Shown: positions 6,554 through 55,802 of the stretch, in pieces
Layout of the letters: each line of letters begins with the position of its first letter
Position numbering within the stretch: the first letter of the stretch is position 1
IMG/VR virus record: IMGVR_UViG_3300037076_000045
Span: 859 to 64,858 of that record
Source of the DNA: a virus
Lineage: Duplodnaviria > Caudoviricetes
Reading direction: 5' to 3' (one strand)
Length of the DNA: 64,000 bases
Made by a program: the position numbers and the translations under genes
Notes under the pieces: model-generated
What the model was told of the DNA's origin: nothing
The model's database searches: none
The model's input: the letters and a program-made list of their open reading frames with translations, nothing else

Positions 6554-6594
6554 GTGTTTTTCACAAGATGTAACTGTTTTTCATAAATATAGCC

Positions 6595-7671
6595 ATGCAA
6601 GGCTTCCTCCAGTACATCGCCGCTCTCGAAGAGTCATACATCAATTTTGGCGACTACAATCTGGAGAACAAATTCCATCATTATAACACAGTTCTGTTCG
6701 ACAATCACGTGCCTGCGTGTCCGGTCGTCTGGACTGAAAATTTGAAAAACGGATCGAGGTCTGCTGCCGGTCTGACAACATTCAATCACATAGGCCGCAA
6801 CTTGGTGCCTGGGTCATTGAAGATCCAAATCTCTACTCGTTTCAAACGTTCAGAGCAGGATCTTGACGCCACACTTGTACACGAAATGATTCATGCGTTT
6901 TTGGTAGTGCAAGGTTTCCCGGAAGAGAATCACGGATTTCGTTTCTTGGCGCAGGCGCACAGAGTCGAGCAGATGCTTGGACTCAAGATTCCGGTCACTG
7001 ACGATTTGAGTGCTCTTGAACTTACCAATGACGCATTCACGACTACGACAGTTCTTCTCAAGACTTATCGTCAATCCTGGGACGCCATTTTCTATAGTGG
7101 GACGATGTTTGACGATCCACGGAAGCAGGATGAACTCAAAGCCTTTTGGGGAGTGCCAGGAAGGTTGTCGGCGCACGAAGAGATACGAGTAATCAAGATT
7201 CAGAGCAATTTATTGATGAAGTACGGTGGCGCACGAACAGTAAAGCAAACCAAGTGGCACATCATTAGTCCGACAGAAATTGCCGACATCATGCAGCGTG
7301 GTCAGATCATGTTTACGATTACGCCGGGATCGGTCTCGCACGAATTTGCTGCTGCCAACTTGCCGACGAAAGAGGCGCTGGTGGTCACACGCACGAACAC
7401 ACGCACGCATGAGATCGCCGTTGCCTTCTACTTGCCGGGGATCGCACGTGATACTCTGAAGATGCAAATTTTGAAAGAGAAGTGGCACTCCTGGTACGCA
7501 GCCGGGTACGACGTAGACATTTTCCTTACGACTACGACGGCATTGAATCGTGGCTTTGTGATGCAGCGAGATCCATCGAAGGGATCGTATTACATCATGC
7601 GACCGAATAATTTGGGCACGGTCGATGAGCTTCGCCGGAACGCTAATTATCTGGAGCGCTGGCACCAATAG
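6595..7671 (+). CDS. SprT-like zinc metalloprotease with capsid-targeting-like leader
   Basis: AAG, TLVHEMIH and HGFRF motifs; N-terminus MQGFLQYIAALEE; ATAAATA 5 nt upstream. Confidence 0.85.
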   Translation: MQGFLQYIAALEESYINFGDYNLENKFHHYNTVLFDNHVPACPVVWTENLKNGSRSAAGLTTFNHIGRNLVPGSLKIQISTRFKRSEQDLDATLVHEMIHAFLVVQGFPEENHGFRFLAQAHRVEQMLGLKIPVTDDLSALELTNDAFTTTTVLLKTYRQSWDAIFYSGTMFDDPRKQDELKAFWGVPGRLSAHEEIRVIKIQSNLLMKYGGARTVKQTKWHIISPTEIADIMQRGQIMFTITPGSVSHEFAAANLPTKEALVVTRTNTRTHEIAVAFYLPGIARDTLKMQILKEKWHSWYAAGYDVDIFLTTTTALNRGFVMQRDPSKGSYYIMRPNNLGTVDELRRNANYLERWHQ

Positions 7672-8831: not shown

Positions 8832-9425
8832 TTACGAAGCGTAAGCAACAATCTCGTACTTGCCGGTGACATCCATTTTGTACCACGTCACCGTAACGAA
8901 AATGCCGTTGCCGATAGCGATGTGCTTGCGGCCTTCGTTGCCGTTCACTTTCCCGGCCACGGTGTCGTCTTCAAACTCGTGCCAGTCGAAGCCGCACGAA
9001 GCGATTGCATCTTGGATGACGCCGAATGCTTGCGCCTTGCCGGTGTAGCGAGTCTTGTTGACAGGCTCCAGGAGACCGTTCAGCTTCTTGGTTGCCTTGC
9101 GCTTGCTGGTCGAATCCATGACGGTGGTGTAAGGGTCACGGTGGTCATCGTGTGCGCTGGAAGCGTATGCGACGATTTCGTACCGGCCAGACCCCAGGCG
9201 GTACCACGTCATCGTAAGCCACATTTCCGGGCCAACCTGGACGTGTAGACGGCCCTCGTCGCCATGCAGATGCTCTTGGACTTTGCTAGGGTCTAGGTCG
9301 TGTTTCGTCAGCACCAGCGTGATTTCCCGGAGGGGCATTCCGGTGTGCTTTTGAGCGTTAATAGGCTCCAGGTCTGCGTTCACCTTTTTGGTGAGAGCTT
9401 GGGTTTCAGCCGGTGAGAGTTTCAT
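8832..9425 (-). CDS. Late protein of two tandem homologous domains
   Basis: TWY(R/K)...G(R/K)YEIVAYAS twice; ATAAATA 5 nt upstream. Confidence 0.75.
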   Translation of the reverse strand: MKLSPAETQALTKKVNADLEPINAQKHTGMPLREITLVLTKHDLDPSKVQEHLHGDEGRLHVQVGPEMWLTMTWYRLGSGRYEIVAYASSAHDDHRDPYTTVMDSTSKRKATKKLNGLLEPVNKTRYTGKAQAFGVIQDAIASCGFDWHEFEDDTVAGKVNGNEGRKHIAIGNGIFVTVTWYKMDVTGKYEIVAYAS

Positions 9426-9438
9426 GGCAGTATTTATC

Positions 9439-9627
9439 CTAACCTACCAGTTCTTCCCGGAACTTCCAAACTGCGGCAGCTTCGGTGAATCCCAAACCAG
9501 ACCACTGGCGGAAGCGCCGGGTAGCCTCTACAGCGTCCAGCATGGGACCGCTGTAAACCGTCACGTCATCCCACGTCATTTCCATCTGACCGTCCAGGAT
9601 CACGACTTGTAATTTGGTGCCGTTCAT
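9439..9627 (-). CDS. Small early protein (leaderless)
   Basis: ATG 6 nt after the -10 of promoter 9634-9662. Confidence 0.6.
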   Translation of the reverse strand: MNGTKLQVVILDGQMEMTWDDVTVYSGPMLDAVEATRRFRQWSGLGFTEAAAVWKFREELVG

Positions 9628-9633
9628 GTTCCA

Positions 9634-9674
9634 AGAATAGCACGCCCGGACCTGAATGTCAATAGATGTATCTA
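9634..9674 (-). promoter_or_regulatory. Sigma70-type early promoter with palindromic operator
   Basis: TTGACA-17-TATTCT; TAGATACATCTA abuts the -35. Confidence 0.8.
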
Positions 9675-9709
9675 CTTTTCTTCGGCGTATTTTGCCCGGA
9701 GAAAAGCCA

Positions 9710-10232
9710 TCAGTTCTCGCCGCCCTCCGGGGATGCGACACGCTCAATTTCAAACAATTTGTTGTCTACCATATGCTGCCACAGAGCTTTCAATGGAAGG
9801 ATACGTAACGCATAGTTCGTGCTGTTGCCGTAGTATTCGTCACGAGAGTAACTATCCGTCTTCGTCAGACGCATGATTGCTTTGTAACGAATGAACGTGA
9901 TGTTCGGAGCGAAGTGTTCAAGGATCTTGTCCAGATCGTCCCATTGAGGTTCGGTCTCGCCAGTGGAATAGGCGTGGTTTTCTCCACCCCCAACATGAGC
10001 CACCACCGATGCCGCCCGTGGTCCAGGACAGAACTAAAGCCGGTGCCTTTTCCCAAGGCTCTACGGTGTAGTCTTCGCTGTACAAAGAAATTCCACCGTA
10101 CAGGAAAGAACCGTCGAGATGGCTGGAATAGCCGTAACGCTTCTTTTCTTTCTTCGCCGGTTCTTTCGGAACGTCGGGAACAGTCAGGCCGATGATCTTC
10201 AGTTCTTTTACGAATTTTTCATACGTCCACAT
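9710..10232 (-). pseudogene. Probable single gene split by a frameshift at a G5 run (9987-9991)
   Basis: ...TTGGIGGGSCWG continues in the -1 frame as GGENHAYSTGETEPQW... Confidence 0.55.
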
Positions 10233-10254
10233 AACAGATCCATTATAGCACAAA

Positions 10255-10292
10255 ACCGCTTGAATCAAGTTGCCATCCCTGATTCAAGCGGT
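10255..10292. terminator. 13-bp hairpin at the 3' end of the tRNA array
   Basis: ACCGCTTGAATCA...TGATTCAAGCGGT; TTTG follows on the - strand. Confidence 0.65.
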
Positions 10293-10366
10293 CTTCGCTA
10301 CTGATGAACTTCTACTGATGAATCACACGCTTACGAAGTTTCACTCCTAAGAAAATGAGTGCGCTT

Positions 10367-10407
10367 CCTAAAAGGCGGCAATTCTTAAACCATTGAACTA
10401 CGGAGAG
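10367..10407 (-). pseudogene. tRNA 5' half (Lys-UUU-like)
   Basis: CTCTCCG-TA-GTTC-AATGGTTTAA-GAAT-T-GCCGC-CTTTTAG; no 3' half follows. Confidence 0.5.
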
Positions 10408-10412
10408 AAAAT

Positions 10413-10493
10413 TGGTGGATTCGGAGGGGATTGAACCCTCATCTTTCTGGGTAAGAGCCAGATATTCTGTGTCCTATTTTGAACTACGAATCC
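10413..10493 (-). tRNA. tRNA-Lys(CUU), enlarged D-loop
   Basis: GGATTCG/CGAATCC-A-CCA; TCTGG-CTCTTAC-CCAGA; 13-nt D-loop. Confidence 0.85.
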
Positions 10494-10685
10494 GAAACTT
10501 TGTGCGTGTGTTCCTCTTCCAGCCGCCCGCATTGAGCGCAACCGACACCTGTGTAAGTGTGATGCTCTCCATACGGATGGTTAGTCGGATGGAACTTGTC
10601 TGCCGGTTCCTTAGAATTCGGCAAATCGAAACTTAGTCGATATTGATACTGAAGAGTCGAAATGGCACCATTTATAAATATTGAC

Positions 10686-11201
10686 ATGTCAATTCAAGTA
10701 TGCTCATGTGGTGTTTCTACTACCAACCCAAAATATTGCTCACGATCTTGCTGTGCAAAGTCAACTAATCGCATACCAAAGCGGAAAAAAACAAAGCTAT
10801 GTAAATCTTGTACAACTCTCATCTCAAGCAAAAACAAGTATTGCTCAATCTGCCGTCCAGAAACTAAAAATTGGGACCAATTGACGTTGAATGATGTTGC
10901 TTCAATCCCTCGATATCAAATATTCGCAAGAATCCGTCAGATTGCTAGAGCGGTCTATAAACAATCCAAACAACCCAAATGTTGCGTTGTGTGTGGATAC
11001 GACAAGCATTACGAAATTTGTCATCGAACACCAATCAGCACGTTTTCTCTAAGTACGCTAATCAGTGTCATCAATGCAATCGAGAATCTTATTTCATTGT
11101 GCCCAAACCACCATTGGGAATTCGATAACGCAAAGTTGGTAGTCCCGGTAGGAGTCGAACCTACGGCCACAAGTTTAGGAAACTTGGACTCTATCCGCTG
11201 A
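10686..11201 (+). CDS. HNH homing endonuclease
   Basis: CVVCGY...EICHR...NLISLCPNHHWEFD; TATAAATA 5 nt upstream. Confidence 0.85.
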   Translation: MSIQVCSCGVSTTNPKYCSRSCCAKSTNRIPKRKKTKLCKSCTTLISSKNKYCSICRPETKNWDQLTLNDVASIPRYQIFARIRQIARAVYKQSKQPKCCVVCGYDKHYEICHRTPISTFSLSTLISVINAIENLISLCPNHHWEFDNAKLVVPVGVEPTATSLGNLDSIR

Positions 11202-11212
11202 GTTACGGGACC
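11137..11212 (-). tRNA. tRNA-Arg(CCU)
   Basis: Cloverleaf; CAAGT-TTCCTAA-ACTTG; CCA encoded. Confidence 0.93.
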
Positions 11213-11481
11213 ACATTTTTTAATCGTTGAACTATAAGACCAGGAACTTTCACTTCAATGCCACGCTTCCATTTACTTTCATCGAACTTACCGAACCTCT
11301 CAATGTTCAGTTGGATCGTCCTTTGAAAGCCGATCTTGAAATGAAACAACGCTTCTGCTTTGTTGTCGCCTTGGGCGAGGTAATCATACTCGACACCTTC
11401 GCACACCCAAAATCTTCCATCACGGATGAACCTTACATTGGTTCTTCCCAAGCCATCGATGTAAATGTTAATCGTAGTCAT
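11203..11481 (-). CDS. HicB-like fold protein
   Basis: FWVCEGVEYDYLAQGDNKAEAL resembles the HicB N-terminal QGxTxEEA motif. Confidence 0.55.
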   Translation of the reverse strand: MTTINIYIDGLGRTNVRFIRDGRFWVCEGVEYDYLAQGDNKAEALFHFKIGFQRTIQLNIERFGKFDESKWKRGIEVKVPGLIVQRLKNVVP

Positions 11482-11486
11482 AAAAT

Positions 11487-11562
11487 TGGTAGCCCCACAA
11501 GGACTCGAACCTTGATTCTCGCTTTAGAAGAGCGAGGCCCTATCCCATTGGACGATGGGGCC
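11487..11562 (-). tRNA. tRNA-Arg(UCU)
   Basis: TCGCT-CTTCTAA-AGCGA; CCA encoded. Confidence 0.93.
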
Positions 11563-11569
11563 AAAATTT

Positions 11570-11643
11570 TGGTAGCCACCCGCAGAGTTGAACTGCGATA
11601 GCTGGCATGTCATACCAGTGCTCTACCATTGAGCTAGGCGGCT
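11570..11643 (-). tRNA. tRNA-Val(GAC)
   Basis: CTGGT-ATGACAT-GCCAG; CCA encoded. Confidence 0.88.
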
Positions 11644-11680
11644 GCGGATTCTGAACATCTTCAGAATCATAAATCGTAGC

Positions 11681-12082
11681 ATGACTTGTCAAACCTGCCA
11701 TGCTCCACTCACAGGAAAGCAAACTAAATTTTGCTCTCGACCGTGTAAAAATCAAAACTCAAATGCAAACTACAACGTGTATGTTAAACAACAAGAACGT
11801 GCTCGTCGTAGAAAGATAGGATTCGTAATGGCAATGGGTGGAAAATGCACCAAGTGCGGCTACCGAAAAAATTTAGCAGCCTTGACTTTTCACCATAACG
11901 ATCCTACCCTCAAAGAACTCCAACTAGATCGGAGAATTATGTCAAACTACAACATGGAAAGATTGATTGCAGAAGTTGCTAAATGCACGCTACTTTGCTC
12001 AAATTGCCATGCTGAACATCATAATCCTACCGAAGAATCTTGGTGGACCGAGTGGGACTTGAACCCACAACCGCCAGATTAA
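11681..12082 (+). CDS. HNH homing endonuclease
   Basis: GGKCTKCGY..ALTFHH..P...KCTLLCSNCHAEHH. Confidence 0.85.
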   Translation: MTCQTCHAPLTGKQTKFCSRPCKNQNSNANYNVYVKQQERARRRKIGFVMAMGGKCTKCGYRKNLAALTFHHNDPTLKELQLDRRIMSNYNMERLIAEVAKCTLLCSNCHAEHHNPTEESWWTEWDLNPQPPD

Positions 12083-12116
12083 GAGTCTGTTACTCTACCA
12101 ATTGAGTTACCAGTCC
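12041..12116 (-). tRNA. tRNA-Lys(CUU)
   Basis: ACAGA-CTCTTAA-TCTGG; CCA encoded. Confidence 0.92.
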
Positions 12117-12122
12117 AAAACT

Positions 12123-12302
12123 TTAGGAACCAGCTTGCTTTGCATGATGCGTCATTTGGAGCGACACTTCTGTCACTTCCTGCACCAGCTTAACTTGCGG
12201 TTCTCTCGCATTACTTCTGCAATCTTCTTCCAGGCACACATTGATGTAACCTGGGTGTTTTCGGGCGGGAGTAAATTCCTCGCCACATATTCGACACTTC
12301 AT
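12123..12302 (-). CDS. Small zinc-finger protein between tRNAs
   Basis: SD GAGG; MKCRICGEEF...VCLEEDC. Confidence 0.55.
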   Translation of the reverse strand: MKCRICGEEFTPARKHPGYINVCLEEDCRSNAREPQVKLVQEVTEVSLQMTHHAKQAGS

Positions 12303-12371
12303 TTTATTACCTCTGCCGCAACCGGCTAAATTCACGGTCAACTTCTCAGAATAGCGACAGTGTAAAAACTT

Positions 12372-12447
12372 TGGTAGACCCGGTTGGACTCGAACCAACG
12401 ATTTCCTCCGTATCAGAGAGGCGTCCTAGCCACTGAACGACGGGTCT
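12372..12447 (-). tRNA. tRNA-Ile(GAU), variant body
   Basis: CCTCT-CTGATAC-GGAGG; CCA encoded. Confidence 0.88.
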
Positions 12448-12448
12448 A

Positions 12449-12536
12449 TGGTACTCCTGAGAGGACTCGAACCTCCATTGAGCTTGACGCTCCCACGTTC
12501 GTAGCGTGGTGCCTAATCCAATTAGACTACAGGAGC
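12449..12536 (-). tRNA. Class-II tRNA with ACG (Arg) anticodon
   Basis: CCACG-CTACGAA-CGTGG followed by long V-arm GAGC-GTCAA-GCTC; A73-CCA. Confidence 0.88.
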
Positions 12537-12547
12537 ATATTGAACTT

Positions 12548-12624
12548 TGGTAGCCCCGGTAGGACTCGAACCTACAAGTCTCTGCGTTCGTAGCGCAGCA
12601 TCCTATCCATTGAACGACGGGGCC
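12548..12624 (-). tRNA. tRNA-Arg(ACG)
   Basis: CTGCG-CTACGAA-CGCAG; canonical class I. Confidence 0.93.
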
Positions 12625-12639
12625 ACAACTTAAAAAATT

Positions 12640-12716
12640 TGGTCGGCCTAGATGGAGTCGAACCATCGACCTCTGTCTTATCAGGACAGCGCTCTAGCCA
12701 ACTGAGCTACAGGCCG
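12640..12716 (-). tRNA. tRNA-Ile(GAU)
   Basis: CTGTC-CTGATAA-GACAG; canonical. Confidence 0.95.
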
Positions 12717-12745
12717 TAAAACTTGCTTGCCCTGATTGTGTATGA

Positions 12746-12822
12746 TGGTGAGTCCGGTCAGACTTGAACTGACATCCCCCAACTTAAAAGGATGGTGCTC
12801 TGCCAGATTGAGCTACAGACCC
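12746..12822 (-). tRNA. tRNA-Lys(UUU)
   Basis: CCATC-CTTTTAA-GTTGG (one U-U mismatch); CCA encoded. Confidence 0.9.
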
Positions 12823-12877
12823 ATGATTGGCGGATCTGCGATAACACCACACACAGAGAGGACACTCGAATGCGATG

Positions 12878-12928
12878 TTATCGCTTTCGTTTATCTCTCC
12901 GAATTGTAATTCGACGTGTGCGTGTCAT
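12878..12928 (-). CDS. Putative leader peptide MTRTRRITIRRDKRKR
   Basis: 16 codons, 16 nt after TATAAATA (12945-12952), directly ahead of the tRNA array. Confidence 0.55.
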   Translation of the reverse strand: MTRTRRITIRRDKRKR

Positions 12929-12953
12929 TTTCTGAACTCTTTCGTATTTATAC

Positions 12954-13010
12954 AGAGAGTGGTGTGGCGAGAAAGCCATGATTACGGGCTTGTTTTTCAC
13001 ACCACTCTCT
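12954..13010 (-). ncRNA. Long hairpin in the tRNA-operon leader
   Basis: Perfect 13-bp IR AGAGAGTGGTGTG/CACACCACTCTCT with inner AAGCC/GGCTT. Confidence 0.6.
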
Positions 13011-13024
13011 ACTTCATTAACTAC

Positions 13025-13053
13025 AGTCTAGCACGACTTCCAAATCCTGTCAA
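13025..13053 (-). promoter_or_regulatory. Sigma70-type promoter P2 of the tRNA array
   Basis: TTGACA-17-(TGC)TAGACT. Confidence 0.8.
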
Positions 13054-13065
13054 GTGCCTTTTTTT

Positions 13066-13268
13066 ATTTGACCGATGTGGTGTGCGGCACACCGGCCAAC
13101 ATTCTGAACGGGAAAACACAATTGGATCTTCAACAGGCATCCATACTCCGTTCGTAGCATGGAGACCCAATTGTTCCGGCTTGACCGCCCCGGAGTCGCA
13201 CCCCATTACCGGGTAGAGCCGATTCACGTTGACTCATTCTCTACGGTCTGATTTACCGTCAACGCTCA
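13066..13268 (-). ncRNA. Candidate ~200-nt structured ncRNA
   Basis: Four consecutive helical domains downstream of promoter P1; no convincing ORF. Confidence 0.6.
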
Positions 13269-13274
13269 ATTATC

Positions 13275-13303
13275 AATTTAGCACAACAACAAAACGTTGT
13301 CAA
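13275..13303 (-). promoter_or_regulatory. Sigma70-type promoter P1
   Basis: TTGACA-17-(TGTGC)TAAATT. Confidence 0.75.
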
Positions 13304-13486
13304 CTATTGCCCGATCCACTTCACTGCATCGGCCCGCCCGCAAAACACTTCCCAGGCGTCTTTCAGGCGGCGCATACAGAACCAGGAACCGTGATTGAAA
13401 GGCAATGGTCTAGCTGGAACATAGCAGCCATCAACATAGGCTGCGCTGTGATTAACCCACTTTATCAATTCTTCGATCTTGTACAT
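13304..13486 (-). CDS. Hypothetical protein
   Basis: YVPARP...RRLKDAWEVFCGRADAVKW, a small phage-type protein. Confidence 0.65.
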   Translation of the reverse strand: MYKIEELIKWVNHSAAYVDGCYVPARPLPFNHGSWFCMRRLKDAWEVFCGRADAVKWIGQ

Positions 13487-13614
13487 ATGTCAAATCCAAA
13501 AGATGAAAGGCAATCATGATTGGGCCAATCGCAAATCCCCATATACGAATCCGCCTTCCTCGTGCAGTTAGGTTCCGGCAGAACTTATCTGTCGTACCTC
13601 TGTAAAATTTTGGT

Positions 13615-14082
13615 CTATGCGATAGTATGGCTTTGATGTACTTCCACATCTTTCAATGCCCTCACTTTCCAATAGCCCACTTGATGCGCTGTTTTTCTGG
13701 TGTGACAGTTTGCACATCTAATATCACACTTATCAATTTCTGCTTTCAGTCTCGACCAAGAAGTATAATGTCGCAACATTTTACTAATCTCTTCAGATTT
13801 GTTCTCCCGATGATCGAATTGAAGTACAAGTACATCGGCTTCTCCACAATCGGCACACGGGTGCTGCATCAAATATTCGAGAACTATTTTACGATTGTGT
13901 CGCTGATTCTCCTGGAGCTTTCTTTTCTGCTGCGCTCGTCTTTCAGACCCATTTTCTTGGTAATAACTTTTACAGCGAAGTCGCCCACACAATTTACATT
14001 CCCTTCGCCAACCGGGTTTGCCGTTTTGAGCTTTATAGAATTCGTCAAGCGACTTCGGTTTATTGCATGTACTACATATCAT
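13615..14082 (-). CDS. HNH homing endonuclease
   Basis: PCADCGE...VLQFDH...KCDIRCANCHTRKT; CTAAATA 5 nt upstream. Confidence 0.88.
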   Translation of the reverse strand: MICSTCNKPKSLDEFYKAQNGKPGWRRECKLCGRLRCKSYYQENGSERRAQQKRKLQENQRHNRKIVLEYLMQHPCADCGEADVLVLQFDHRENKSEEISKMLRHYTSWSRLKAEIDKCDIRCANCHTRKTAHQVGYWKVRALKDVEVHQSHTIA

Positions 14083-14114
14083 GAACCTATTTAGAGATTC
14101 ATGATTTCCGCTTC

Positions 14115-14477
14115 TTAATCGCACATTTTAAAAATCATTTCACCAATCAAGAAGATCAGGAAGCCAAGTTGCTTGTCAGTACCGCTGGCATTCGGTTCCC
14201 GCATCATCTTTTCCTTATACTCAAAGATTTGCTTGTACAGATCACGTACAGCATTGACCTTCGCAACGCTCTCTACGTCTGTGCTCTCCGCAATGGTAGC
14301 AGCCTCGCTCGACTTGAATGCTTCGATGTTATCAAGTGTGTAGCGTACCGCACGGCGGATAAATTCAGACCTATTCAGCGATGGGATTTGTTCTTTGAGA
14401 ACTTGGTCAACCGCCGCAGTAAGAGTGGACGGAAGCCTCAATAAAATTTTGTCGTCTTGTACTTTTTCCTTGGACAC
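14115..14477 (-). CDS. Ribbon-helix-helix (CopG-like) DNA-binding protein
   Basis: KILLRLPSTL...VD...NRSEFIRRAV. Confidence 0.8.
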   Translation of the reverse strand: MSKEKVQDDKILLRLPSTLTAAVDQVLKEQIPSLNRSEFIRRAVRYTLDNIEAFKSSEAATIAESTDVESVAKVNAVRDLYKQIFEYKEKMMREPNASGTDKQLGFLIFLIGEMIFKMCD

Positions 14478-14511
14478 AAAAATACCTCTACTTGTATATA
14501 TAACAAGTAAG

Positions 14512-15117
14512 ATGCCAAAAGGAATTTATTGTAGAAAACCAACGGCGAGGTACCAAGCCATAAAATCCAACGAGTTATACTATGATGGAAGAGCTTGCAA
14601 AAACTGTGGATCTACGACAAAATATGTACACGGGCAACATTGCGTAGCTTGTAAGAAGATTGCAAATGTTCCGACTGCTCAAAAAAGACAGTATCACAAA
14701 CAATGGTGCATTAATAATCGAGATCAAGATAGACAGCATAAAACTCGTTGGCGCAATGAAAACAGAGAACAAGCAAGAGCCGCTTCTGAGGTATGGAGAA
14801 AACGACACCCGGAGAGACACTCTTTTTATCAAGGCACACGGAGAGCAAAAAAACGAAACGCTCCAGGTACCCACTCATTTGAAGAATGGAGATTGTTAGT
14901 TGAAAAATTCGGAACCATTTGCCTCTGTTGCAAAATCTCTGAACGTAATCTGATAAAAACCACCGGACGAGCGCTTACAGAAGATCACATAATCCCTTTA
15001 AGCAATCCAGCTACCACAAATGATATTACCAACATACAACCACTTTGCTTGGAATGTAACATTCGCAACTACCTATTTTACAAAAAGACTGGTTCGCAAA
15101 AAGATTTTAGATGGTAG
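14512..15117 (+). CDS. HNH homing endonuclease
   Basis: CLCC...LTEDHIIPLS...NDITNIQPLCLECN. Confidence 0.88.
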   Translation: MPKGIYCRKPTARYQAIKSNELYYDGRACKNCGSTTKYVHGQHCVACKKIANVPTAQKRQYHKQWCINNRDQDRQHKTRWRNENREQARAASEVWRKRHPERHSFYQGTRRAKKRNAPGTHSFEEWRLLVEKFGTICLCCKISERNLIKTTGRALTEDHIIPLSNPATTNDITNIQPLCLECNIRNYLFYKKTGSQKDFRW

Positions 15118-15198
15118 ACCCGGCCAGACTCGAACTGGCGACTTTCCGCTTCGGAAGCGGATGTTCTCAAGGCTTTCGCTCCACTGAACTACGGGTCC
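15112..15198 (-). tRNA. tRNA-Arg(CCG) with D-loop insertion
   Basis: TCCGC-TTCCGAA-GCGGA; 19-nt D-loop containing GC-GAAA-GC. Confidence 0.85.
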
Positions 15199-15202
15199 AA
15201 AT

Positions 15203-15835
15203 TTACAACTTTCCGGCGTAGGACGACTTACTCTTTGCGTTCTGACCAAACTTGACTGAAAACATGTCGGCATCGTGAACAATTCTAGCTTCAATAGTCT
15301 GAGGCTCAACCGGACTGCCCCATTCCTTTCGGCCATGATGCGCTAGGATTGCGTGTTCAATTCCCAACACAATTTCAGGATGCACTTCTTTGTGCTGGAT
15401 TTCCATCAGAAAAGCAGCATGACTCCCGGCCACATGACGAACCAAGTTGCGGTAGTCCGTCTTCGCAATGTAAGTCGCCGGTTGACCATACGCATCCAAG
15501 TAGATTGAATCCGGTGTTGACTTATGTCGAATTTCATACTCGTTGATCTTCATAAAGTCGTGATAGATCGCTGCCGTAACAACCACGTCTTCGTCGGCGC
15601 TGACACCGGCTGTAGCTACAGAGTTAAATGTCTTCGCCTGATTAAAAGCAAAGTCTGTAACTTCGGCTGTGTGGATGATTAGTCCACCAGGATATGCATG
15701 GTGCTCACCGGCAGATCCAACCTGAGTGAAAAATTTTGGATTGTCGATGACTTTGAAACATGCATCCTGTAGTGCCGGAATAGTCAATTCGGTCGCATAA
15801 TGCATCAATAATTCTTTGGCTTGTTTTTCGTTCAT
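15203..15835 (-). CDS. HD-domain hydrolase (YhaM-like)
   Basis: HHAYPGGLIIH, YHDFMK, ILAHHG..EWGSPV.P and HDAD motifs. Confidence 0.88.
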   Translation of the reverse strand: MNEKQAKELLMHYATELTIPALQDACFKVIDNPKFFTQVGSAGEHHAYPGGLIIHTAEVTDFAFNQAKTFNSVATAGVSADEDVVVTAAIYHDFMKINEYEIRHKSTPDSIYLDAYGQPATYIAKTDYRNLVRHVAGSHAAFLMEIQHKEVHPEIVLGIEHAILAHHGRKEWGSPVEPQTIEARIVHDADMFSVKFGQNAKSKSSYAGKL

Positions 15836-15840
15836 GAAAT

Positions 15841-15931
15841 TGGTACCCGGTCGTGGAATCGGACCACGTTCTAGTCGGTAATCTGCCGAGACCGCTTATA
15901 AGGCGGCTTGAGAACCATCCTCCCACCGGGC
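15841..15931 (-). tRNA. Class-II tRNA-Ile(UAU)-like
   Basis: GCCCGGT/ACCGGGT-A-CCA; GCCGC-CTTATAA-GCGGT; long V-arm; G8; T-loop TCCGATT. Confidence 0.8.
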
Positions 15932-15936
15932 GTGAA

Positions 15937-16158
15937 CTAATTGCCGATGGTCAGTTGTATGAGATGTTGCCGTCGTTCTTTCTGAACTAAGTCACGAGTA
16001 CTGTAATTGAAAATGGCACAGACAAAATTGATGAAGAAGGCGAGAAAATTGATCGTCAATCCACTGGCCGATGTGGAGAACACAAGCAAAACTAGGCTGA
16101 TGACGCCAAGAGCAGCGCTCAACTTCCAAGCATCGGGATGTGAAAACCAGTTCATCAT
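15937..16158 (-). CDS. Small two-TM membrane protein
   Basis: Two hydrophobic stretches. Confidence 0.55.
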   Translation of the reverse strand: MMNWFSHPDAWKLSAALGVISLVLLVFSTSASGLTINFLAFFINFVCAIFNYSTRDLVQKERRQHLIQLTIGN

Positions 16159-16338
16159 ATTCAGTGTACTATAATTTAGACTCGGAGGCAAATTCCAATT
16201 GTTGTGCTGCATTAACAGCATCCATCTGTTTGCGATAACACCGGACGCAAAGATCGTGATCCTCCCGACTTTTTCTGTGGTTTTTTTGCTTCGGTGTCAA
16301 ATAATTAGCTGGCCGCCCGCAAATTTGGCAAGGGCGTG

Positions 16339-16911
16339 TCACGATTGCACCGGACATCCAAGACAATATACCTGTGACGGTTTACTAAGCTCCGTGCGAA
16401 GGCGCATCAAGAGCATACCGAGAAAATTGGTCTTTTCTTTTTTGGTACAATCATGACACCGGCAAGCTCCCCAATCATTATCGTGCCATGAATTGCCTTC
16501 GATCAATTCCGCCTCGCCGGTCTTCAAGAGTCTTTGACGAAGATCCCAATTTTGAGTGAACTTCGCTTTGAGAATGTCGTACATGACATCCAGCCGGGTC
16601 GCTTCCCAATCGTCCCGTTTCGTCACAACTTTGCCAGCAGATTTTGCTTGTCCTGGCGTTGTGGGCATCTCGTAGCCCGATTCCATGACATAAATCAGGA
16701 TCGTCTTCTGTTCGGCTGGATCGCTAGTCTTGGCCCATTGGTAAGCGTGCTCCGATGTGGAGAATTTTTGACCCCTCCAAGTAACCGGAGCGACATAGAA
16801 ATTGCTTAGGAAGTCGTATTCATTGCGGAAGGCTTCGATGATTACTTCACCAAATGAATTGGTTCGTTCTACCGGAAGACTCGTTTGAAGATGTGGTTGC
16901 GGCGACTGCAT
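16339..16911 (-). CDS. NADAR (YbiA-like) protein
   Basis: FLSNFY, SEHAYQ.AK, KFTQN..L...LL.TG..ELIEG...D..WG and N.LG..LM..R. Confidence 0.93.
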   Translation of the reverse strand: MQSPQPHLQTSLPVERTNSFGEVIIEAFRNEYDFLSNFYVAPVTWRGQKFSTSEHAYQWAKTSDPAEQKTILIYVMESGYEMPTTPGQAKSAGKVVTKRDDWEATRLDVMYDILKAKFTQNWDLRQRLLKTGEAELIEGNSWHDNDWGACRCHDCTKKEKTNFLGMLLMRLRTELSKPSQVYCLGCPVQS

Positions 16912-16945
16912 GAGATCAGTTTACCACACAGTCGCCATTCGTCAA

Positions 16946-17500
16946 CTACTGGAAGCCTTCGCCGTAATGATCGGTGTCGCAATCGCCCCGCCCGCAAAGA
17001 TCACACTTCCAATTTTGATGTTGTTTTTCTGCCTGTTCTTGAAGTGTCTTGTAATAGGTGAATTCCTTGCGTCCGTAGATTTCGACCAATTCCAGACCAC
17101 TCTTCGGCACAAAGATGTAGCCCATCAGTTCCATGCTGGTGTGCCCGTCGTCGCCGTAATTCTCATAGTGCTCGACCATGAAAATTTCTTCACCAAGATC
17201 CCAAATTCCGAAACCATGGCCGTGCTCATCGAACGTTCCCCACTTCGGGTGTTTGACCGCAACTTCATGGATTTCGGTACGGGTGATAATAAACGGACTG
17301 TATCCTTCCCGTAAGTTCTTATTGAGTGCCCATAGGTCGGTCGGGTAAATGCGTCCTTGCCGTGGCGCAAAGAAGCCGGGTTCGTGCGCAACAAATTCGG
17401 TGGCGAGATTGAATGTGGTGTACCGATTCATCAGGTACGGCAACCAAGATGGATCAAAGTACTGAGCTTTGTACTGCTCGTAAATGTTGGGTCGTTTCAT
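16946..17500 (-). CDS. Hypothetical protein with C-terminal zinc knuckle
   Basis: Long ORF; CDLCGRGDC; start uncertain. Confidence 0.6.
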   Translation of the reverse strand: MKRPNIYEQYKAQYFDPSWLPYLMNRYTTFNLATEFVAHEPGFFAPRQGRIYPTDLWALNKNLREGYSPFIITRTEIHEVAVKHPKWGTFDEHGHGFGIWDLGEEIFMVEHYENYGDDGHTSMELMGYIFVPKSGLELVEIYGRKEFTYYKTLQEQAEKQHQNWKCDLCGRGDCDTDHYGEGFQ

Positions 17501-22383: not shown

Positions 22384-22812
22384 TTAGTTAGACGTAGTGT
22401 CTACGATTGTCTCGCCCGGAAAATCCTGAAAACGATCCTGCATCTGTTGCACCTTGTCAGCCGGAACGCCGTGTAAGTTACGTGCGGCGGCAATCTTCGG
22501 GTCCACTGTCAGGCGAACCACCTTGACCTCGCAGCCGAATCGAGCAGCCGTTTTCAGGTAGTTCTTCATTTCCCACAGCTTTGTGTTGGTGTTGTCCACG
22601 ACAATGGTCTCGTCGCCACGCTTCAGCGCTTGGCCGAATTGATCGCCGCACCATGCGTGAGCATTGCCCAACTTGGTCGGATCGAATTTGTACACACCGT
22701 CCTTGATGAAGAACTTGTCGGCGCTGCACACGGTAGCGTTCGGAAAATTAGCCTCGGTGTAGGTGCTCTTTCCGGCCCCGGAGATTCCACGAAGAATGAT
22801 GACTGTGCTCAT
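22384..22812 (-). CDS. AAA_33 / polynucleotide-kinase-like P-loop protein
   Basis: RGISGAGKST, CSAD.FF, VVDNTN and RN.HGVP. Confidence 0.9.
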   Translation of the reverse strand: MSTVIILRGISGAGKSTYTEANFPNATVCSADKFFIKDGVYKFDPTKLGNAHAWCGDQFGQALKRGDETIVVDNTNTKLWEMKNYLKTAARFGCEVKVVRLTVDPKIAAARNLHGVPADKVQQMQDRFQDFPGETIVDTTSN

Positions 22813-54783: not shown

Positions 54784-55029
54784 TTAAATTTTTCTATTTC
54801 GGTCCAAATACGAAGCCAGAAGCTCTTCGTGTATGTCAACTAAACGGTTCATAATCGGACTATTCTTAAATTGTGCCCGCATCTCTTTGAAATATTTCTT
54901 GGCTTCGTCCAATGTCTGTTCCCACGTGCCGGATCGTTTTGCAATTTCTAGGCAATCACCATCTGGAAACACGTACCCATCAACAAAAACCTCACTCCAC
55001 AATTTGTGTGCAATATCCTCTGTGTTCAT
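54784..55029 (-). CDS. Hypothetical protein
   Basis: Coupled ORF. Confidence 0.5.
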   Translation of the reverse strand: MNTEDIAHKLWSEVFVDGYVFPDGDCLEIAKRSGTWEQTLDEAKKYFKEMRAQFKNSPIMNRLVDIHEELLASYLDRNRKI

Positions 55030-55802
55030 ATCAACTGCGCCATCCATCCTTTATGCGGACCTGACGTGATCGGGGTGCCACGACTTACTGTATTTGCCAT
55101 GCTTTGTACATTCAAATTGTGTGCCACACAGAAGTGCCGCAATGACTTCACAATGTACTCCAATCCGTCAGGCGACGTGACTTTATATGACTTGGCATTC
55201 GGATGTAAATCGCCAGTCATCTTCTGAACCCGTTTCGCTATTGTCTCTGCGGATTGTTTTCTGCCTTTGCTTGCTGCTGCCATTCTCTGTCTAGTCTCTT
55301 CAGTAATCTGTTTCCCAGTGCTCCAATGGTGGTCACCGCAAATGTGGTTGTGGCTGGCACGCATCTTAGTTCGTGTTACTTCGGAGTGCTGCTTGCCAAA
55401 CATAGGATGTTGATTTCCAGTTTTTCCATACATAGGATTAAGGTCGCCAGCCACTAAATGACCTTTACCCCACATACCATGTCGTTCACCACGAAGACCA
55501 ACAACCCCGCCACCACCTTCTGTCATGTTGTATCCGTTACCGAATGTTCCCAATTTGGCAATCCATTCCATTTCTTTTCGATTCAATTCTTCGAGCGTTT
55601 CTGCGAGGTCAAGTTGTTCAATCAAAAACATTCGTTTTCCGTGTTTCCGAATCGCTTGATAAAGCACATAATGTTTTGGAGTTTTTCGATTATGTGCTGC
55701 CCACAAATGGCTGCGCCATCTCTTTTGAATGTTGGTGACTGTTTGTCCAATGTACTTCTTTCCATTCACAATATTTGTAATCTGATAGATGATGCCATAC
55801 AT
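55026..55802 (-). CDS. GIY-YIG homing endonuclease with NUMOD3 repeats
   Basis: IIYQITN.VNGKKYIGQT; GYNMTEGG; NPMYGK. Confidence 0.93.
   Translation of the reverse strand: MYGIIYQITNIVNGKKYIGQTVTNIQKRWRSHLWAAHNRKTPKHYVLYQAIRKHGKRMFLIEQLDLAETLEELNRKEMEWIAKLGTFGNGYNMTEGGGGVVGLRGERHGMWGKGHLVAGDLNPMYGKTGNQHPMFGKQHSEVTRTKMRASHNHICGDHHWSTGKQITEETRQRMAAASKGRKQSAETIAKRVQKMTGDLHPNAKSYKVTSPDGLEYIVKSLRHFCVAHNLNVQSMANTVSRGTPITSGPHKGWMAQLI

What the first reader, a model, noticed from the sequence alone, without database searches (positions are those of the whole stretch)
12823..12952. Leader peptide whose codons mirror the downstream tRNA array: candidate tRNA-depletion sensor
Seen: on the - strand, 16 nt after late promoter TATAAATA and 55 nt before the first tRNA, lies ATG ACA CGC ACA CGT CGA ATT ACA ATT CGG AGA GAT AAA CGA AAG CGA TAA. 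Of its 15 codons after Met, 11 are Arg (7, using five of the six Arg codons), Ile (2) or Lys (both codons). Of the 12 tRNAs in the window, 11 are Arg, Ile or Lys. The downstream segment GTGTGTGGTGTTATCGC can pair either with the stop region (GCGATAACATCGCAT, about 15 bp) or with the start region (ATGACACGCACAC, about 13 bp), and the two are mutually exclusive. Known: leader-peptide attenuators sense charged tRNA, and host anticodon nucleases deplete tRNAs during infection. Inference: ribosome stalling switches the RNA fold and gates transcription or processing of replacement tRNAs. No U-tract follows, so the output would be Rho-dependent or processing-based. The frame is also open upstream to GTG 13000. 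I know of no described attenuator on a phage tRNA array.
Basis: partly seen in the sequence, partly recalled or inferred. Interest (0 to 1): 0.92.

Follow-up and report, generated by a model that had tools for sequence, protein, structure and literature searches.

The report
Codon-matched mini-gene heading phage tRNAs
A tiny conserved gene written mostly in arginine, isoleucine and lysine codons sits inside a switchable RNA fold just ahead of a peat phage's arginine, isoleucine and lysine tRNA genes, and probably lets the phage gauge how well those codons are being read.

Summary
On the - strand a 16-codon ORF (12928-12878, MTRTRRITIRRDKRKR) lies 16 nt after TATAAATA and 55 nt before tRNA-Lys(UUU). 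It is the only one of 549 short ATG ORFs in the window with at least 73% Arg+Ile+Lys.

Four further, distinct homologous leaders were found in metagenome and IMG/VR contigs. All keep the promoter box, a purine-rich pre-start motif, an ATG, the frame and a stop at the same place. All ORF length changes are multiples of 3. All carry 6-7 Arg, 2 Ile and 2 Lys.

Each sequence folds on its own into the same structure, with changes on both sides of pairs. A competing helix, stop region with a downstream copy, also shows a two-sided change.

A sister contig has a leader in the same frame that reads Tyr-Tyr ahead of tRNA-Tyr, so ORF codons follow array content.

There is no conserved terminator. The leader tail is complementary to the 5' acceptor strand of the first tRNA, so I propose that the output is tRNA folding and processing. 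Modelling of that output is inconsistent across the leaders.

Translation, sensing and output are all inferred. Earlier notes of this scan describe codon-matched leader ORFs before tRNA arrays in other phages, with terminators. I found no published account.

The parts
13025..13053 (-). sigma-70-like promoter (TTGACA, 17 nt, TAGACT) that feeds the leader from upstream
   Evidence: scores 10 of 12 matches with a TG before the -10 box. By eye, similar boxes stand upstream of the leaders in L009, L012 and L011.
12953..13011 (-). hairpin 1, a 14-pair stem that ends directly before the late promoter box
   Evidence: the 208-nt fold has z -4.98. A hairpin of different sequence sits at the same place in L009, L012 and L154 (by eye). 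Its loop varies in one run.
12945..12952 (-). TATAAATA, a T4-type late promoter box
   Evidence: It is invariant in the 5 Arg/Ile/Lys leaders. Structural genes of this phage carry (C/A/G)TAAATA upstream. The exact 8-mer occurs 3 times in the window against about 2.7 expected, so the count alone says nothing.
12937..12941 (-). weak Shine-Dalgarno-like AAGAG
   Evidence: A GAG or AGG motif lies about 8-13 nt before the ATG in all 5 leaders, although the spacer varies in sequence and length: 14, 16, 17, 17 and 21 nt.
12878..12928 (-). leader ORF of 16 codons plus TAA, encoding MTRTRRITIRRDKRKR
   Evidence: It is conserved in L009, L011, L012/L013 and L154, and all length changes are in frame.
12915..12928 (-). 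P1 5' arm: the start codon and codons 2-5
   Evidence: Pairs changed on both sides appear in L009 (A-U to G-C, C-G to U-A, G-U to U-A), and L012 has G-C where the window has G-U.
12900..12913 (-). P2 small hairpin inside the ORF
   Evidence: It is present in the window, L009 and L011 and absent in L012 and L154. This stretch is therefore not held by RNA structure, yet it stays rich in Arg and Ile.
12867..12889 (-). P3 local stem-loop that carries the last four codons and the stop in its 5' strand
   Evidence: It forms in all 5 leaders. It is 8 nt shorter in the window but still a hairpin. In L011 a synonymous CGA to CGT change comes with a changed partner strand.
12877..12884 (-). X: the stop-region strand GCGATAAC, which includes TAA
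   Evidence: Sequence.
12841..12855 (-). P1 3' arm, GU-rich
12838..12845 (-). X'': a distal copy, GTTATCGC, complementary to X
   Evidence: The window has GCGATAAC with GTTATCGC. L009, L012 and L154 have GCGATAGC with GCTATCGC, a change on both sides. With a modelled stalled ribosome the probability of X:X'' is 0.98-0.99 in the window and 0.96 in L009.
12831..12839 (-). leader tail complementary to the 5' acceptor strand of the first tRNA ('anti-acceptor')
   Evidence: duplex energy -13.2 kcal/mol, reached by 3 of 500 shuffles. This is the strongest value among the 36 tRNAs tested, tied with the L009 leader. One search gives the pairing probabilities.
12746..12822 (-). tRNA-Lys(UUU), first gene of the array; its acceptor stem has two G-U pairs
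10413..12716 (-). rest of the array behind the leader: Ile-GAU x2, Arg-ACG x2, Lys-CUU x2, Val-GAC, Arg-UCU and Arg-CCU, with HNH genes on the + strand between them

Best explanation
The element is a translated mini-gene, a leader ORF, built into the 5' leader of the transcript that carries the phage's tRNA array. The window is a fragment of a T4-like myophage.

The ORF is written in the codons that the downstream tRNAs read. Its start lies in one helix (P1) and its stop in another (P3).

I propose the following mechanism. A ribosome that runs smoothly to the stop leaves the ground-state fold, P1 plus P3. In that fold the leader tail can hold the 5' acceptor strand of the first tRNA. A ribosome that lingers on the Arg, Ile or Lys codons keeps the P1 5' arm covered. 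The stop-region strand (X) then pairs with its distal copy (X''), next to the tail, the tail lets go, and the tRNA can fold and be cut by RNase P. Slow decoding of these codons would therefore raise the output of the tRNAs that decode them, without a transcription terminator. This works like erm/cat-type translational attenuation, with a tRNA acceptor strand unmasked in place of a ribosome-binding site.

Shown here: the conservation of the ORF, the fold, the alternative helix, and the match between ORF codons and tRNAs. Inferred: translation, stalling, and the output at the level of folding and processing.
For: ORF conservation. Five distinct leaders were found: the window, L009, L011 (cut by its contig end), L012 (identical to L013) and L154.
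- All keep TATAAATA, a purine-rich motif, an ATG and a stop inside GCGATA(A/G).
- The peptides are MTRTRRITIRRDKRKR, MFTRRITIRRDKRKR, MTRRRITIREKRKR, MTRTRIRVRSIKRKR and MTRTRIRVRSISKRKR.
- At least 4 length changes inside the ORF are all multiples of 3. The spacer before it (14, 16, 17, 17, 21 nt) and the stretch after it (55, 64, 66, 62 nt) vary freely.
- In L009 the start codon has moved by exactly one codon.
- Counts are kept while positions turn over: Arg 6-7, Ile 2, Lys 2. One change, CGG to AGG, is synonymous.

RNA fold.
- Each of the 4 complete leaders folds alone into P1 plus P3, with z -2.35 to -3.54.
- P1 has 3 pairs changed on both sides in L009, plus G-U versus G-C in L012.
- X:X'' has one change on both sides.

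Switch. With the 5' part of the ORF masked, the probability of X:X'' is 0.98/0.99 in the window, 0.96/0.96 in L009 and 0.02/1.00 in L012 (mask at codon 4 / codon 8). It is 0.00 with no ribosome or with a ribosome at the stop.

Codon match.
- The window ORF is 1 of 549 for Arg+Ile+Lys content.
- The 166-kb relative, 79% complete, holds only Lys, Ile, Arg x4 and Val tRNAs in its array, and its ORF also has a GTC Val codon.
- L008, a sister contig whose neighbouring 60-aa gene is 77% identical, has a leader in the same framework: TATAGATA, GAAGAGAG, ATGAC..., and ...AATCAT before the tRNA.
- The L008 leader reads MTHYYLARA ahead of tRNA-Tyr(GUA) and a second GUA tRNA-like gene.
- A YY pair occurs in 1 of 296 ORFs of 7-12 codons in the window.

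Output.
- The stretch upstream of each leader-adjacent tRNA is unusually complementary to the tRNA 5' end. Shuffles reach the observed energy 3, 1, 8 and 57 times in 500, and 44 times in 1000 for L008. Among the 32 other tRNAs tested, 3 are at or below 25 in 500.
- In the window, the modelled pairing of the tRNA 5' strand with the leader falls from 0.99 to 0.09 on stalling. In L009 it falls from 0.99 to 0.56-0.80.
- In L008 the acceptor stem stays at 0.94/0.73 while a ribosome waits on the Tyr codons, and falls to 0.25/0.23 once it passes them or sits at the stop.
Against: - No RNA or ribosome data exist for this phage. No listed sequencing run is on record as RNA.
- The pre-start motif is weak (GAG or AGG). 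On late transcripts the 5' untranslated part would be only about 9-16 nt. That estimate uses the T4 rule for the start site, which I recalled and did not test.
- The last five codons are almost invariant at the DNA level. They double as P3 and X, so they say nothing about coding.
- The array content is nearly the same in all four Arg/Ile/Lys relatives. Co-variation of ORF codons with array content therefore rests on a single Tyr leader, for which I have no homologues.
- The output model is not consistent. In L012 and L154 the modelled acceptor and leader pairings do not follow the stall state, and X:X'' does not form in L154 (0.01/0.14). In the window the acceptor stem is predicted at 0.00 in every state.
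- These folds ignore tRNA tertiary structure and folding during transcription.
- The five leaders come from close relatives, so their shared features are partly inherited. The two-sided changes come from few lineages. The GU/CA-repeat arms of P1 can slip, and the register in the truncated L011 is ambiguous.
- Three Thr codons (ACA) and one Asp codon have no matching phage tRNA in the window.
Confidence: 0.42

Rival explanations
1. The same codon-matched leader ORF acts as a sensor, but the output is transcription. Ribosome position would decide whether RNA polymerase stops before the tRNAs. The stop could be Rho acting on the C/A-rich, G-poor start of the leader, or a weak intrinsic stop at the P3 hairpin followed by the U/G-rich P1 3' arm.
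For: All the ORF, fold and codon-match evidence above also fits this reading. In L011, P3 is followed by a real run of U (TTCTTTTT). The P1 5' arm is rich in C and poor in G (sequence). Earlier notes of this scan on other phages describe terminators behind such ORFs (unchecked).
Against: The terminator scan finds nothing on the - strand at the leader. After P3 the window, L009, L012 and L154 have only 3-4 U in 8 nt, in UG repeats, so a U-tract is not conserved. If P3 were the terminator, stalling upstream would favour termination, which is the wrong sign for homeostasis. Rho sites cannot be tested with these tools, and the host is unknown.
Confidence: 0.17
2. The leader is a structured 5' processing or stability element of the tRNA precursor. 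It would protect the 5' end, guide RNase P or RNase E, or act as a folding chaperone for the first tRNA. The ORF would be untranslated, or translated without sensing anything.
For: The fold is strong and conserved, with two-sided changes. The most conserved ORF codons lie in helices. The tail:acceptor complementarity needs no ribosome. There is no terminator. Pre-tRNA leaders often matter for processing (general knowledge).
Against: This reading does not explain several features. The ATG and stop are kept at a distance that is a multiple of 3 through at least 4 length changes. The start codon has been re-created in frame in L009. Arg and Ile counts are kept in the stretch that has no conserved structure, since P2 is lost in L012 and L154. 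The composition is 1 of 549. The sister leader has Tyr-Tyr before tRNA-Tyr.
Confidence: 0.2
3. The ORF encodes a functional arginine-rich micropeptide, for example an RNA-binding or nuclease-blocking peptide made together with the tRNAs. The fold would only tune its translation.
For: The peptide is highly basic and ends in KRKR in all five leaders. Small phage peptides do act in tRNA conflicts; T4 Stp is an example (recalled). E. coli has a small protamine-like ORF, tpr, in the tyrT tRNA operon (recalled).
Against: The sister leader in the same framework encodes MTHYYLARA, which is not basic. The middle of the peptide turns over in sequence while the residue counts are kept. The KRKR codons are fixed at the DNA level by P3 and X. 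No protein of 22-70 aa in the 5.8-billion-protein set matched the 40-aa reading of this frame; the 16-aa peptide itself is too short for those tools.
Confidence: 0.1

Closest known systems
Multivalent leader-peptide transcription attenuators of amino-acid operons (thr leader: Thr and Ile; ilvGMEDA leader: Ile, Leu, Val; also trpL and hisL). Recalled textbook knowledge.
   Same: A short ORF enriched in several sensed codons overlaps mutually exclusive RNA helices, so that ribosome position chooses the fold.
   Different: There is no conserved terminator hairpin with a U-tract. The controlled genes are the tRNAs themselves, so the product is also the thing sensed. The element sits in a phage, behind a T4-type late promoter box.
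erm/cat-type translational attenuation (leader-ORF stalling remodels the mRNA and unmasks a downstream site). Recalled.
   Same: It has no terminator. A ribosome stalled in a leader ORF frees one strand, and the resulting re-pairing unmasks a downstream functional RNA segment.
   Different: The proposed unmasked segment is a tRNA acceptor strand, not a ribosome-binding site. The trigger would be slow decoding, not an antibiotic acting with a nascent peptide.
Stress-induced tRNA arrays of Anabaena, the trn operon repressed by TrcR (PMC10272220, abstract read; PMC8421152, search listing only)
   Same: A supplementary tRNA array is switched on when translation is impaired.
   Different: Control there is by a ribbon-helix-helix repressor protein acting on transcription in a bacterium. 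Those abstracts describe no leader ORF and no RNA switch.
Phage tRNAs as a counter to tRNA-cleaving defences (PMC10264068 and PMC11555353, search listings and abstract starts only)
   Same: A phage array is centred on Lys and Arg tRNAs, the kinds said to be targeted by anticodon nucleases. This gives a reason to gauge their supply.
   Different: Those papers, as far as I saw them, concern the tRNA sequences, not any control element ahead of the array.
Earlier notes of this scan: 'leader-peptide attenuators gating phage tRNA arrays' in other giant phages (AI notes that I did not check)
   Same: A tiny ORF written in the amino acids of the tRNAs that follow it is wired to an RNA switch.
   Different: Those are described with switchable terminators. 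This one has none and instead has a leader tail that matches the tRNA acceptor strand. Here a sister contig shows a swap of specificity, from Arg/Ile/Lys to Tyr.

Membership tests
Leader-peptide transcription attenuator (trpL/hisL/thrL/ilvL type) | Short translatable ORF with a start signal in the 5' leader | tested here: met
   An ATG preceded by a GAG or AGG motif, and an ORF of 14-16 codons, in 5 of 5 leaders. All length changes are in frame. Translation itself was not tested.
Leader-peptide transcription attenuator (trpL/hisL/thrL/ilvL type) | Enrichment of codons for the sensed amino acid(s) | tested here: met
   11 of 15 codons are Arg, Ile or Lys. This is 1 of 549 short ORFs. Relatives have 10 of 13 to 10 of 15.
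Leader-peptide transcription attenuator (trpL/hisL/thrL/ilvL type) | Mutually exclusive helices that overlap the ORF | tested here: met
   P1 plus P3 competes with X:X''. Both have changes on both sides of pairs. The switch is not predicted in L154.
Leader-peptide transcription attenuator (trpL/hisL/thrL/ilvL type) | Intrinsic terminator (G+C-rich hairpin followed by a U-tract) as one of the alternatives | tested here: not met
   There is no terminator-like site on the - strand at the leader. Only L011 has a run of U after P3.
erm/cat-type translational attenuation | Stalling in the leader ORF unmasks the ribosome-binding site of a downstream coding gene | tested here: not met
   The next gene is a tRNA 55 nt downstream, and there is no downstream coding gene. 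It resembles this family only in logic.
Rho-dependent leader-peptide control (tnaC type) | A Rho-loading site exposed or hidden by the ribosome | not testable with these tools
   I can only note a C/A-rich, G-poor P1 5' arm in the sequence.
T-box riboswitch | Specifier loop and T-box motif that bind uncharged tRNA | tested here: not met
   The Rfam scan of 9000-17000 at E up to 1 gives only tRNAs and chance plastid-family hits.
T4-type late transcription unit | A TATAAATA-like box at the right distance before the transcript | tested here: inconclusive
   The box is invariant in 5 leaders. TAAATA-type boxes stand before the scaffold, capsid and two other genes. The 8-mer count equals the chance expectation, and no start-site data exist.

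The most novel reading that the evidence does not exclude
This phage clade may carry modular, amino-acid-specific 'decoding gauges'. Each tRNA cassette would be headed by a translated mini-ORF written in its own codons: Arg/Ile/Lys here and Tyr in a sister phage. The regulated helix would be the acceptor stem of the tRNA itself. A ribosome that passes freely leaves or frees an anti-acceptor strand that traps the pre-tRNA. A ribosome that waits for the scarce tRNA lets it fold and mature. This would be attenuation at the level of tRNA folding and processing, with the tRNA as both signal and product. It could serve to replace tRNAs lost to host anticodon nucleases.
Probability: 0.3. Interest if true: 0.92.

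Novelty: new variant of a known kind. Interest (0 to 1): 0.8.

Why it matters
Why phages carry tRNAs, and how their supply is set, has been open for decades. If this reading holds, a phage measures decoding of particular codons directly. It then adjusts the tRNAs that read them, using a leader-ORF switch that needs no terminator and acts on the tRNA's own folding.

That would extend leader-peptide control from amino-acid biosynthesis to the decoding machinery itself. It would also make the 'tRNA replacement under nuclease attack' idea testable with a compact element of about 130 nt. Finally, it would give a natural design for codon-specific translation sensors.

The paired Arg/Ile/Lys and Tyr leaders in sister phages offer a ready-made specificity swap for experiments.

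Tried and rejected
1. The longer 40-aa reading from GTG 13000. The upstream extension is not conserved. Spacer lengths differ by values that are not multiples of 3, and L012 and L154 have no in-frame upstream start. No protein in the 5.8-billion-protein set shares words with it. Rejected.

2. Coding on the opposite strand. The long antisense frame is a different frame in the window (123 codons) and in L012 (126 codons), and the flanks do not align. Rejected.

3. A known RNA family. The Rfam scan of 9000-17000 at E up to 1 gave only tRNAs and weak plastid-family chance hits.

4. The phage collection. blastn 'distant' with 12400-13400 matched only tRNA parts in 32 records and nothing on the leader.

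5. Searches for relatives that found nothing useful:
- single-protein scans of viral contigs with the 60-aa and HD-domain neighbours
- an exact 30-mer
- a start-region pattern that found only L154
- a 22-mer of the upstream conserved RNA that found only L154
Filtering all loci then held, those from earlier scans included, left only the window's own copy, L009, L012 and L013
- a gapped pattern that gave 11 stretches, 1 true
- Genome contigs, 6 stretches, 0 true
- the four viral contigs relatives of the 60-aa gene (L002-L005), which lack the leader

I therefore could not fetch the contigs of P0002-P0007 directly. I used an alignment of those proteins with the search for related loci instead.

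7. Sequencing runs.
- No RNA holder is listed, so nothing can be said on expression.
- Four DNA runs were laid. Three gave short contigs identical to the window over 153-220 nt. One differed only in the loop of hairpin 1 (6 other letters, 3 gaps).
- This gave no information on variation within the ORF.

8. The Tyr leader of L008 has no match in the 166-kb relative G001. L008's own record is not held, so it was not searched. I have no homologue with which to test conservation of that ORF.

9. Mini-ORFs before tRNAs in more distant loci (L002, L014, L017, L022, L024, L026, and L009's two upstream tRNAs) showed no clear codon-matched leader. The one exception is a Met-rich frame in a 9-nt tandem repeat before tRNA-Met in L017. 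I did not follow it up and do not count it.

10. A consistent output model was not obtained. Modelled acceptor-stem formation follows the stall state in L008 and partly in L009. In the window only the tail:acceptor pairing changes. It does not follow the stall state in L012 or L154.

11. The MAFFT alignments A2-A4 put the GU-repeat arms out of structural register. I therefore did not run the count of structure pairs or build a covariance model, and read pairs from each sequence's own fold instead.

12. Literature. Searches found no paper on a leader ORF before tRNA genes; 0 papers hold both 'tRNA array' and 'leader peptide'. Subscription journals and supplementary files were not searched or seen.
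Full report
CONTEXT

The window is bases 859-64858 of a 64,858-base IMG/VR virus record rated 29% complete. Its major capsid protein is 62% identical to that of Pelagibacter phage Mosig and 58-59% identical to cyanophage gp23 proteins. PHROGs names T4-type scaffold, capsid, DNA polymerase, helicase and ribonucleotide reductase genes. It is therefore a fragment of a T4-like myophage with no close cultured relative. Twelve of the 22 sequencing runs listed, labelled peat metagenome in 11 of those 12, hold at least half of the sampled words of the leader region. Four of these runs may be the source of this DNA.

THE OBSERVATION

On the - strand the order of features is:
- a sigma-70-like promoter (13053-13025)
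- a 14-pair hairpin (13011-12953)
- TATAAATA (12952-12945)
- a 16-nt spacer with AAGAG
- ATG at 12928
- 15 further codons, then TAA at 12880-12878
- 55 nt
- tRNA-Lys(UUU) at 12822

The peptide is MTRTRRITIRRDKRKR. Eleven of its 15 codons after Met are Arg, Ile or Lys. Eleven of the 12 tRNAs in the window are Arg, Ile or Lys. ARAGORN tRNAs. Rfam adds one at 15198-15112, and I read its anticodon loop as CCG.

Among 549 ATG ORFs of 12-25 codons on both strands of the window, this is the only one with Arg+Ile+Lys of at least 0.73; the next bin is 0.5. The phage's own genes use Arg 4.5%, Lys 7.2% and Ile 5.4%.

RELATIVES

This gave four further distinct homologous leaders:
- L009
- L012 (identical to L013)
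- L154, which lies on a 166-kb record rated 79% complete
- L011, which is cut off by its contig end

All five leaders, the window included, keep TATAAATA, a GAG or AGG motif, an ATG, an open frame and a stop inside GCGATA(A/G). The peptides of the four relatives are MFTRRITIRRDKRKR, MTRTRIRVRSIKRKR, MTRTRIRVRSISKRKR and MTRRRITIREKRKR.

At least four length changes inside the ORF are all multiples of three. The spacer before the ATG (14, 16, 17, 17, 21 nt) and the stretch after the stop (55, 64, 66, 62 nt) change freely. In L009 the ATG sits exactly one codon further on.

The middle of the ORF differs between the two groups (RRITIRRD versus RIRVRSI). In L012 and L154 it has lost the small P2 hairpin, so no conserved structure holds it there. 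Every leader nevertheless has 6-7 Arg, 2 Ile and 2 Lys, and one change, CGG to AGG, is synonymous.

The 40-aa upstream extension and both antisense frames are not conserved. I conclude that the short sense ORF is under selection as a reading frame. This is inference, and no expression data exist.

RNA FOLD

Each complete leader, folded on its own, gives the same architecture with z-scores of -3.54, -2.77, -3.23 and -2.35.
- P1 pairs the start region (the AUG itself in the window and L009, codons 2-5 in all) with a GU-rich arm about 75 nt downstream.
- P3 is a local stem-loop. Its 5' strand is made of the last four codons and the stop.

In L009 a block of the P1 5' arm has changed, and the 3' arm has changed to match: A-U to G-C, C-G to U-A and G-U to U-A. 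L012 has G-C where the window has G-U. P3 survives an 8-nt deletion in the window and a 1-nt deletion in L154. In L011 a synonymous CGA to CGT change comes with a changed partner strand.

The stop-region strand X has a second perfect complement, X'', just after the P1 3' arm. The window has GCGATAAC with GTTATCGC. The other three complete leaders have GCGATAGC with GCTATCGC, a change on both sides.

P1 and X:X'' cross each other with almost no linker, so I treat them as alternatives and not as a pseudoknot (inference). I masked a ribosome-sized stretch around codon 4 or codon 8; the footprint size is recalled. With the mask at codon 4 / codon 8, the probability of X:X'' is:
- 0.98/0.99 in the window
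- 0.96/0.96 in L009
- 0.02/1.00 in L012
- 0.01/0.14 in L154

With no ribosome, or with one at the stop, it is 0.00 in all four.

DO THE CODONS FOLLOW THE ARRAY?

The arrays behind the Arg/Ile/Lys leaders all start with Lys-UUU and hold Lys, Ile and Arg tRNAs, plus Val-GAC in the window and L154.

In the 166-kb record the only tRNA matches are:
- eight in this array: Lys-UUU, Ile-GAU, Arg-ACG, Val-GAC, Lys-CUU, Arg-CCG, and two unusual genes whose loops I read as UCU and CCU
- one odd tRNA-like gene elsewhere

Its leader ORF also has a GTC Val codon.

Because array content hardly varies among these relatives, they cannot show co-variation. A sister contig can. In L008 the 60-aa gene is 77% identical, and the next genes are shared with L009. 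There, a leader in the same framework (TATAGATA, GAAGAGAG, ATGAC..., and ...AATCAT directly before the tRNA) reads MTHYYLARA. It is followed by tRNA-Tyr(GUA) and a second tRNA-like gene with a GUA loop. I read that second gene by eye; neither ARAGORN nor Rfam calls it.

A Tyr-Tyr pair occurs in 1 of 296 ATG ORFs of 7-12 codons in the window and in 1 of 80 in L008. I did not print which ORF that one is; the leader ORF itself qualifies. The L008 peptide is not basic, which argues against a conserved basic micropeptide. This is a single sequence without homologues in hand.

OUTPUT

No terminator-like site lies on the - strand at the leader. After P3 the sequence is UG repeats in four leaders, and only L011 has a real run of U. 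Classical attenuation therefore fails a defining test.

What I do see is that the last nucleotides of the leader are complementary to the 5' acceptor strand of the first tRNA:
- window and L009: duplex -13.2 kcal/mol, reached by 3 and 1 of 500 shuffles
- L154: -10.4, reached by 8 of 500
- L012/L013, which have a different first tRNA and a different tail: -9.1, reached by 57 of 500
- L008: -11.2, reached by 44 of 1000

Of the 32 other tRNAs tested, 3 are at or below 25 of 500.

The models then give the following.
- In the window, pairing of the tRNA 5' strand with the leader is 0.99 with no ribosome, 0.98 with one at the stop, and 0.09-0.10 with a stalled one.
- In L009 the same values are 0.99, 0.99 and 0.56-0.80.
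- In L008 the stop codon lies in a 12-pair stem, and the 3' strand of that stem is the anti-acceptor.
- The L008 acceptor stem is predicted at 0.93 with no ribosome, and at 0.94 and 0.73 with the first or second Tyr codon in the A site.
- It falls to 0.25 once the ribosome has passed the Tyr codons and to 0.23 at the stop.

The common logic in these three leaders is that a waiting ribosome lets the tRNA fold and a passing ribosome leaves it trapped. That is homeostatic.

L012 and L154 do not behave this way. In the window the acceptor stem, which has two G-U pairs, is predicted at 0.00 in every state. These are equilibrium energy models without tertiary structure. I therefore hold this output as a hypothesis, supported in 3 of 5 leaders.

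RIVALS

- The same sensor could act through Rho, or through a weak stop at P3. I cannot test Rho, and the sign would be wrong for P3.
- A purely structural leader explains the fold and the tail. It does not explain the frame-keeping, the composition or the Tyr leader.
- A basic micropeptide is weakened by the Tyr leader and by the turnover of positions.

COMPARISON WITH WHAT IS KNOWN

The element works most like multivalent leader-peptide attenuators in how it would sense. It works most like erm/cat translational attenuation in having no terminator and unmasking a downstream RNA strand. Both comparisons are recalled textbook knowledge.

It is not a member of either family. It lacks a terminator, and it has no downstream coding gene.

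In print, the nearest case I found is the Anabaena trn array, which is induced by translational stress through the TrcR repressor (PMC10272220, abstract read; PMC8421152, listing only). Four searches found no leader ORF described before tRNA genes.

Earlier notes of this scan report codon-matched leader ORFs with terminators before tRNA arrays in other giant phages. I did not check them, and they are not independent support.

LIMITS

There are five close relatives and one Tyr leader. There are no RNA or ribosome data, the host is unknown, and the transcription start site is not mapped. The P1 arms are low-complexity and can slip.

Noticed in passing
window 13066-13268 (- strand); L009 3670-3910; L012 140-380; L011 840-1070; L154 around 11257-11278: A stretch of about 200 nt with its own sigma-70-like promoter (13303-13275) lies upstream of the leader. 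It is conserved in all relatives and includes a 22-base block that is identical in the window, L012 and L154. No Rfam family matches it. It looks like a separate small RNA that heads the tRNA region.
   Followed up: partly
L008 7082-7389: A sister contig has a Tyr-Tyr leader ORF (MTHYYLARA) ahead of tRNA-Tyr(GUA). A second tRNA-like gene follows, with a GUA loop and a long extra arm, that neither ARAGORN nor Rfam calls.
   Followed up: partly
L170 1501-1574 and 2074-2149 (- strand), = G001 55017-55090 and 55590-55665: Two tRNA genes were found only by Rfam. I read their anticodon loops as CCU and UCU (Arg). They seem to lack a normal D arm and carry an extra stretch after the anticodon arm.
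   Followed up: no
window 12746-12822 and L009 4330-4405: The first tRNA, Lys-UUU, has two G-U pairs in its acceptor stem. In L154 the same stem is all Watson-Crick. The weak stem makes the competing leader tail the stronger partner in the energy model.
   Followed up: partly
window 10662-11201, 11681-12082, 13615-14124, 14395-15117: HNH-type endonuclease genes lie among and beside the tRNAs. Pfam hits HNH_2 and HNH for two of them. In relatives the spacing between tRNAs differs, as expected for mobile insertions.
   Followed up: partly
window 6583-6597 (+) and 9437-9423 (-): CATAAATA and GATAAATA boxes stand only 5 nt before the ATG of two genes. These late messages may therefore be leaderless or nearly so.
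   Followed up: no
L017, about 110-220 nt upstream of tRNA-Met at 2957 (- strand): A 9-nt unit repeated about six times gives a Met-rich frame (MSFMSFMSF...) shortly before a Met, Asp, Trp tRNA group in a distant relative. It may be only a tandem repeat.
   Followed up: no
L171 1440-1575 (G001 about 102.7 kb): A lone tRNA-like gene with its own sigma-70-like promoter. ARAGORN could not assign it a normal anticodon.
   Followed up: no
window 15203-15835, 16339-16911, 22384-22812: HD-domain, NADAR-domain and AAA_33 kinase-like genes lie near the tRNA region (Pfam). They may form an RNA or nucleotide repair and counter-defence neighbourhood.
   Followed up: no
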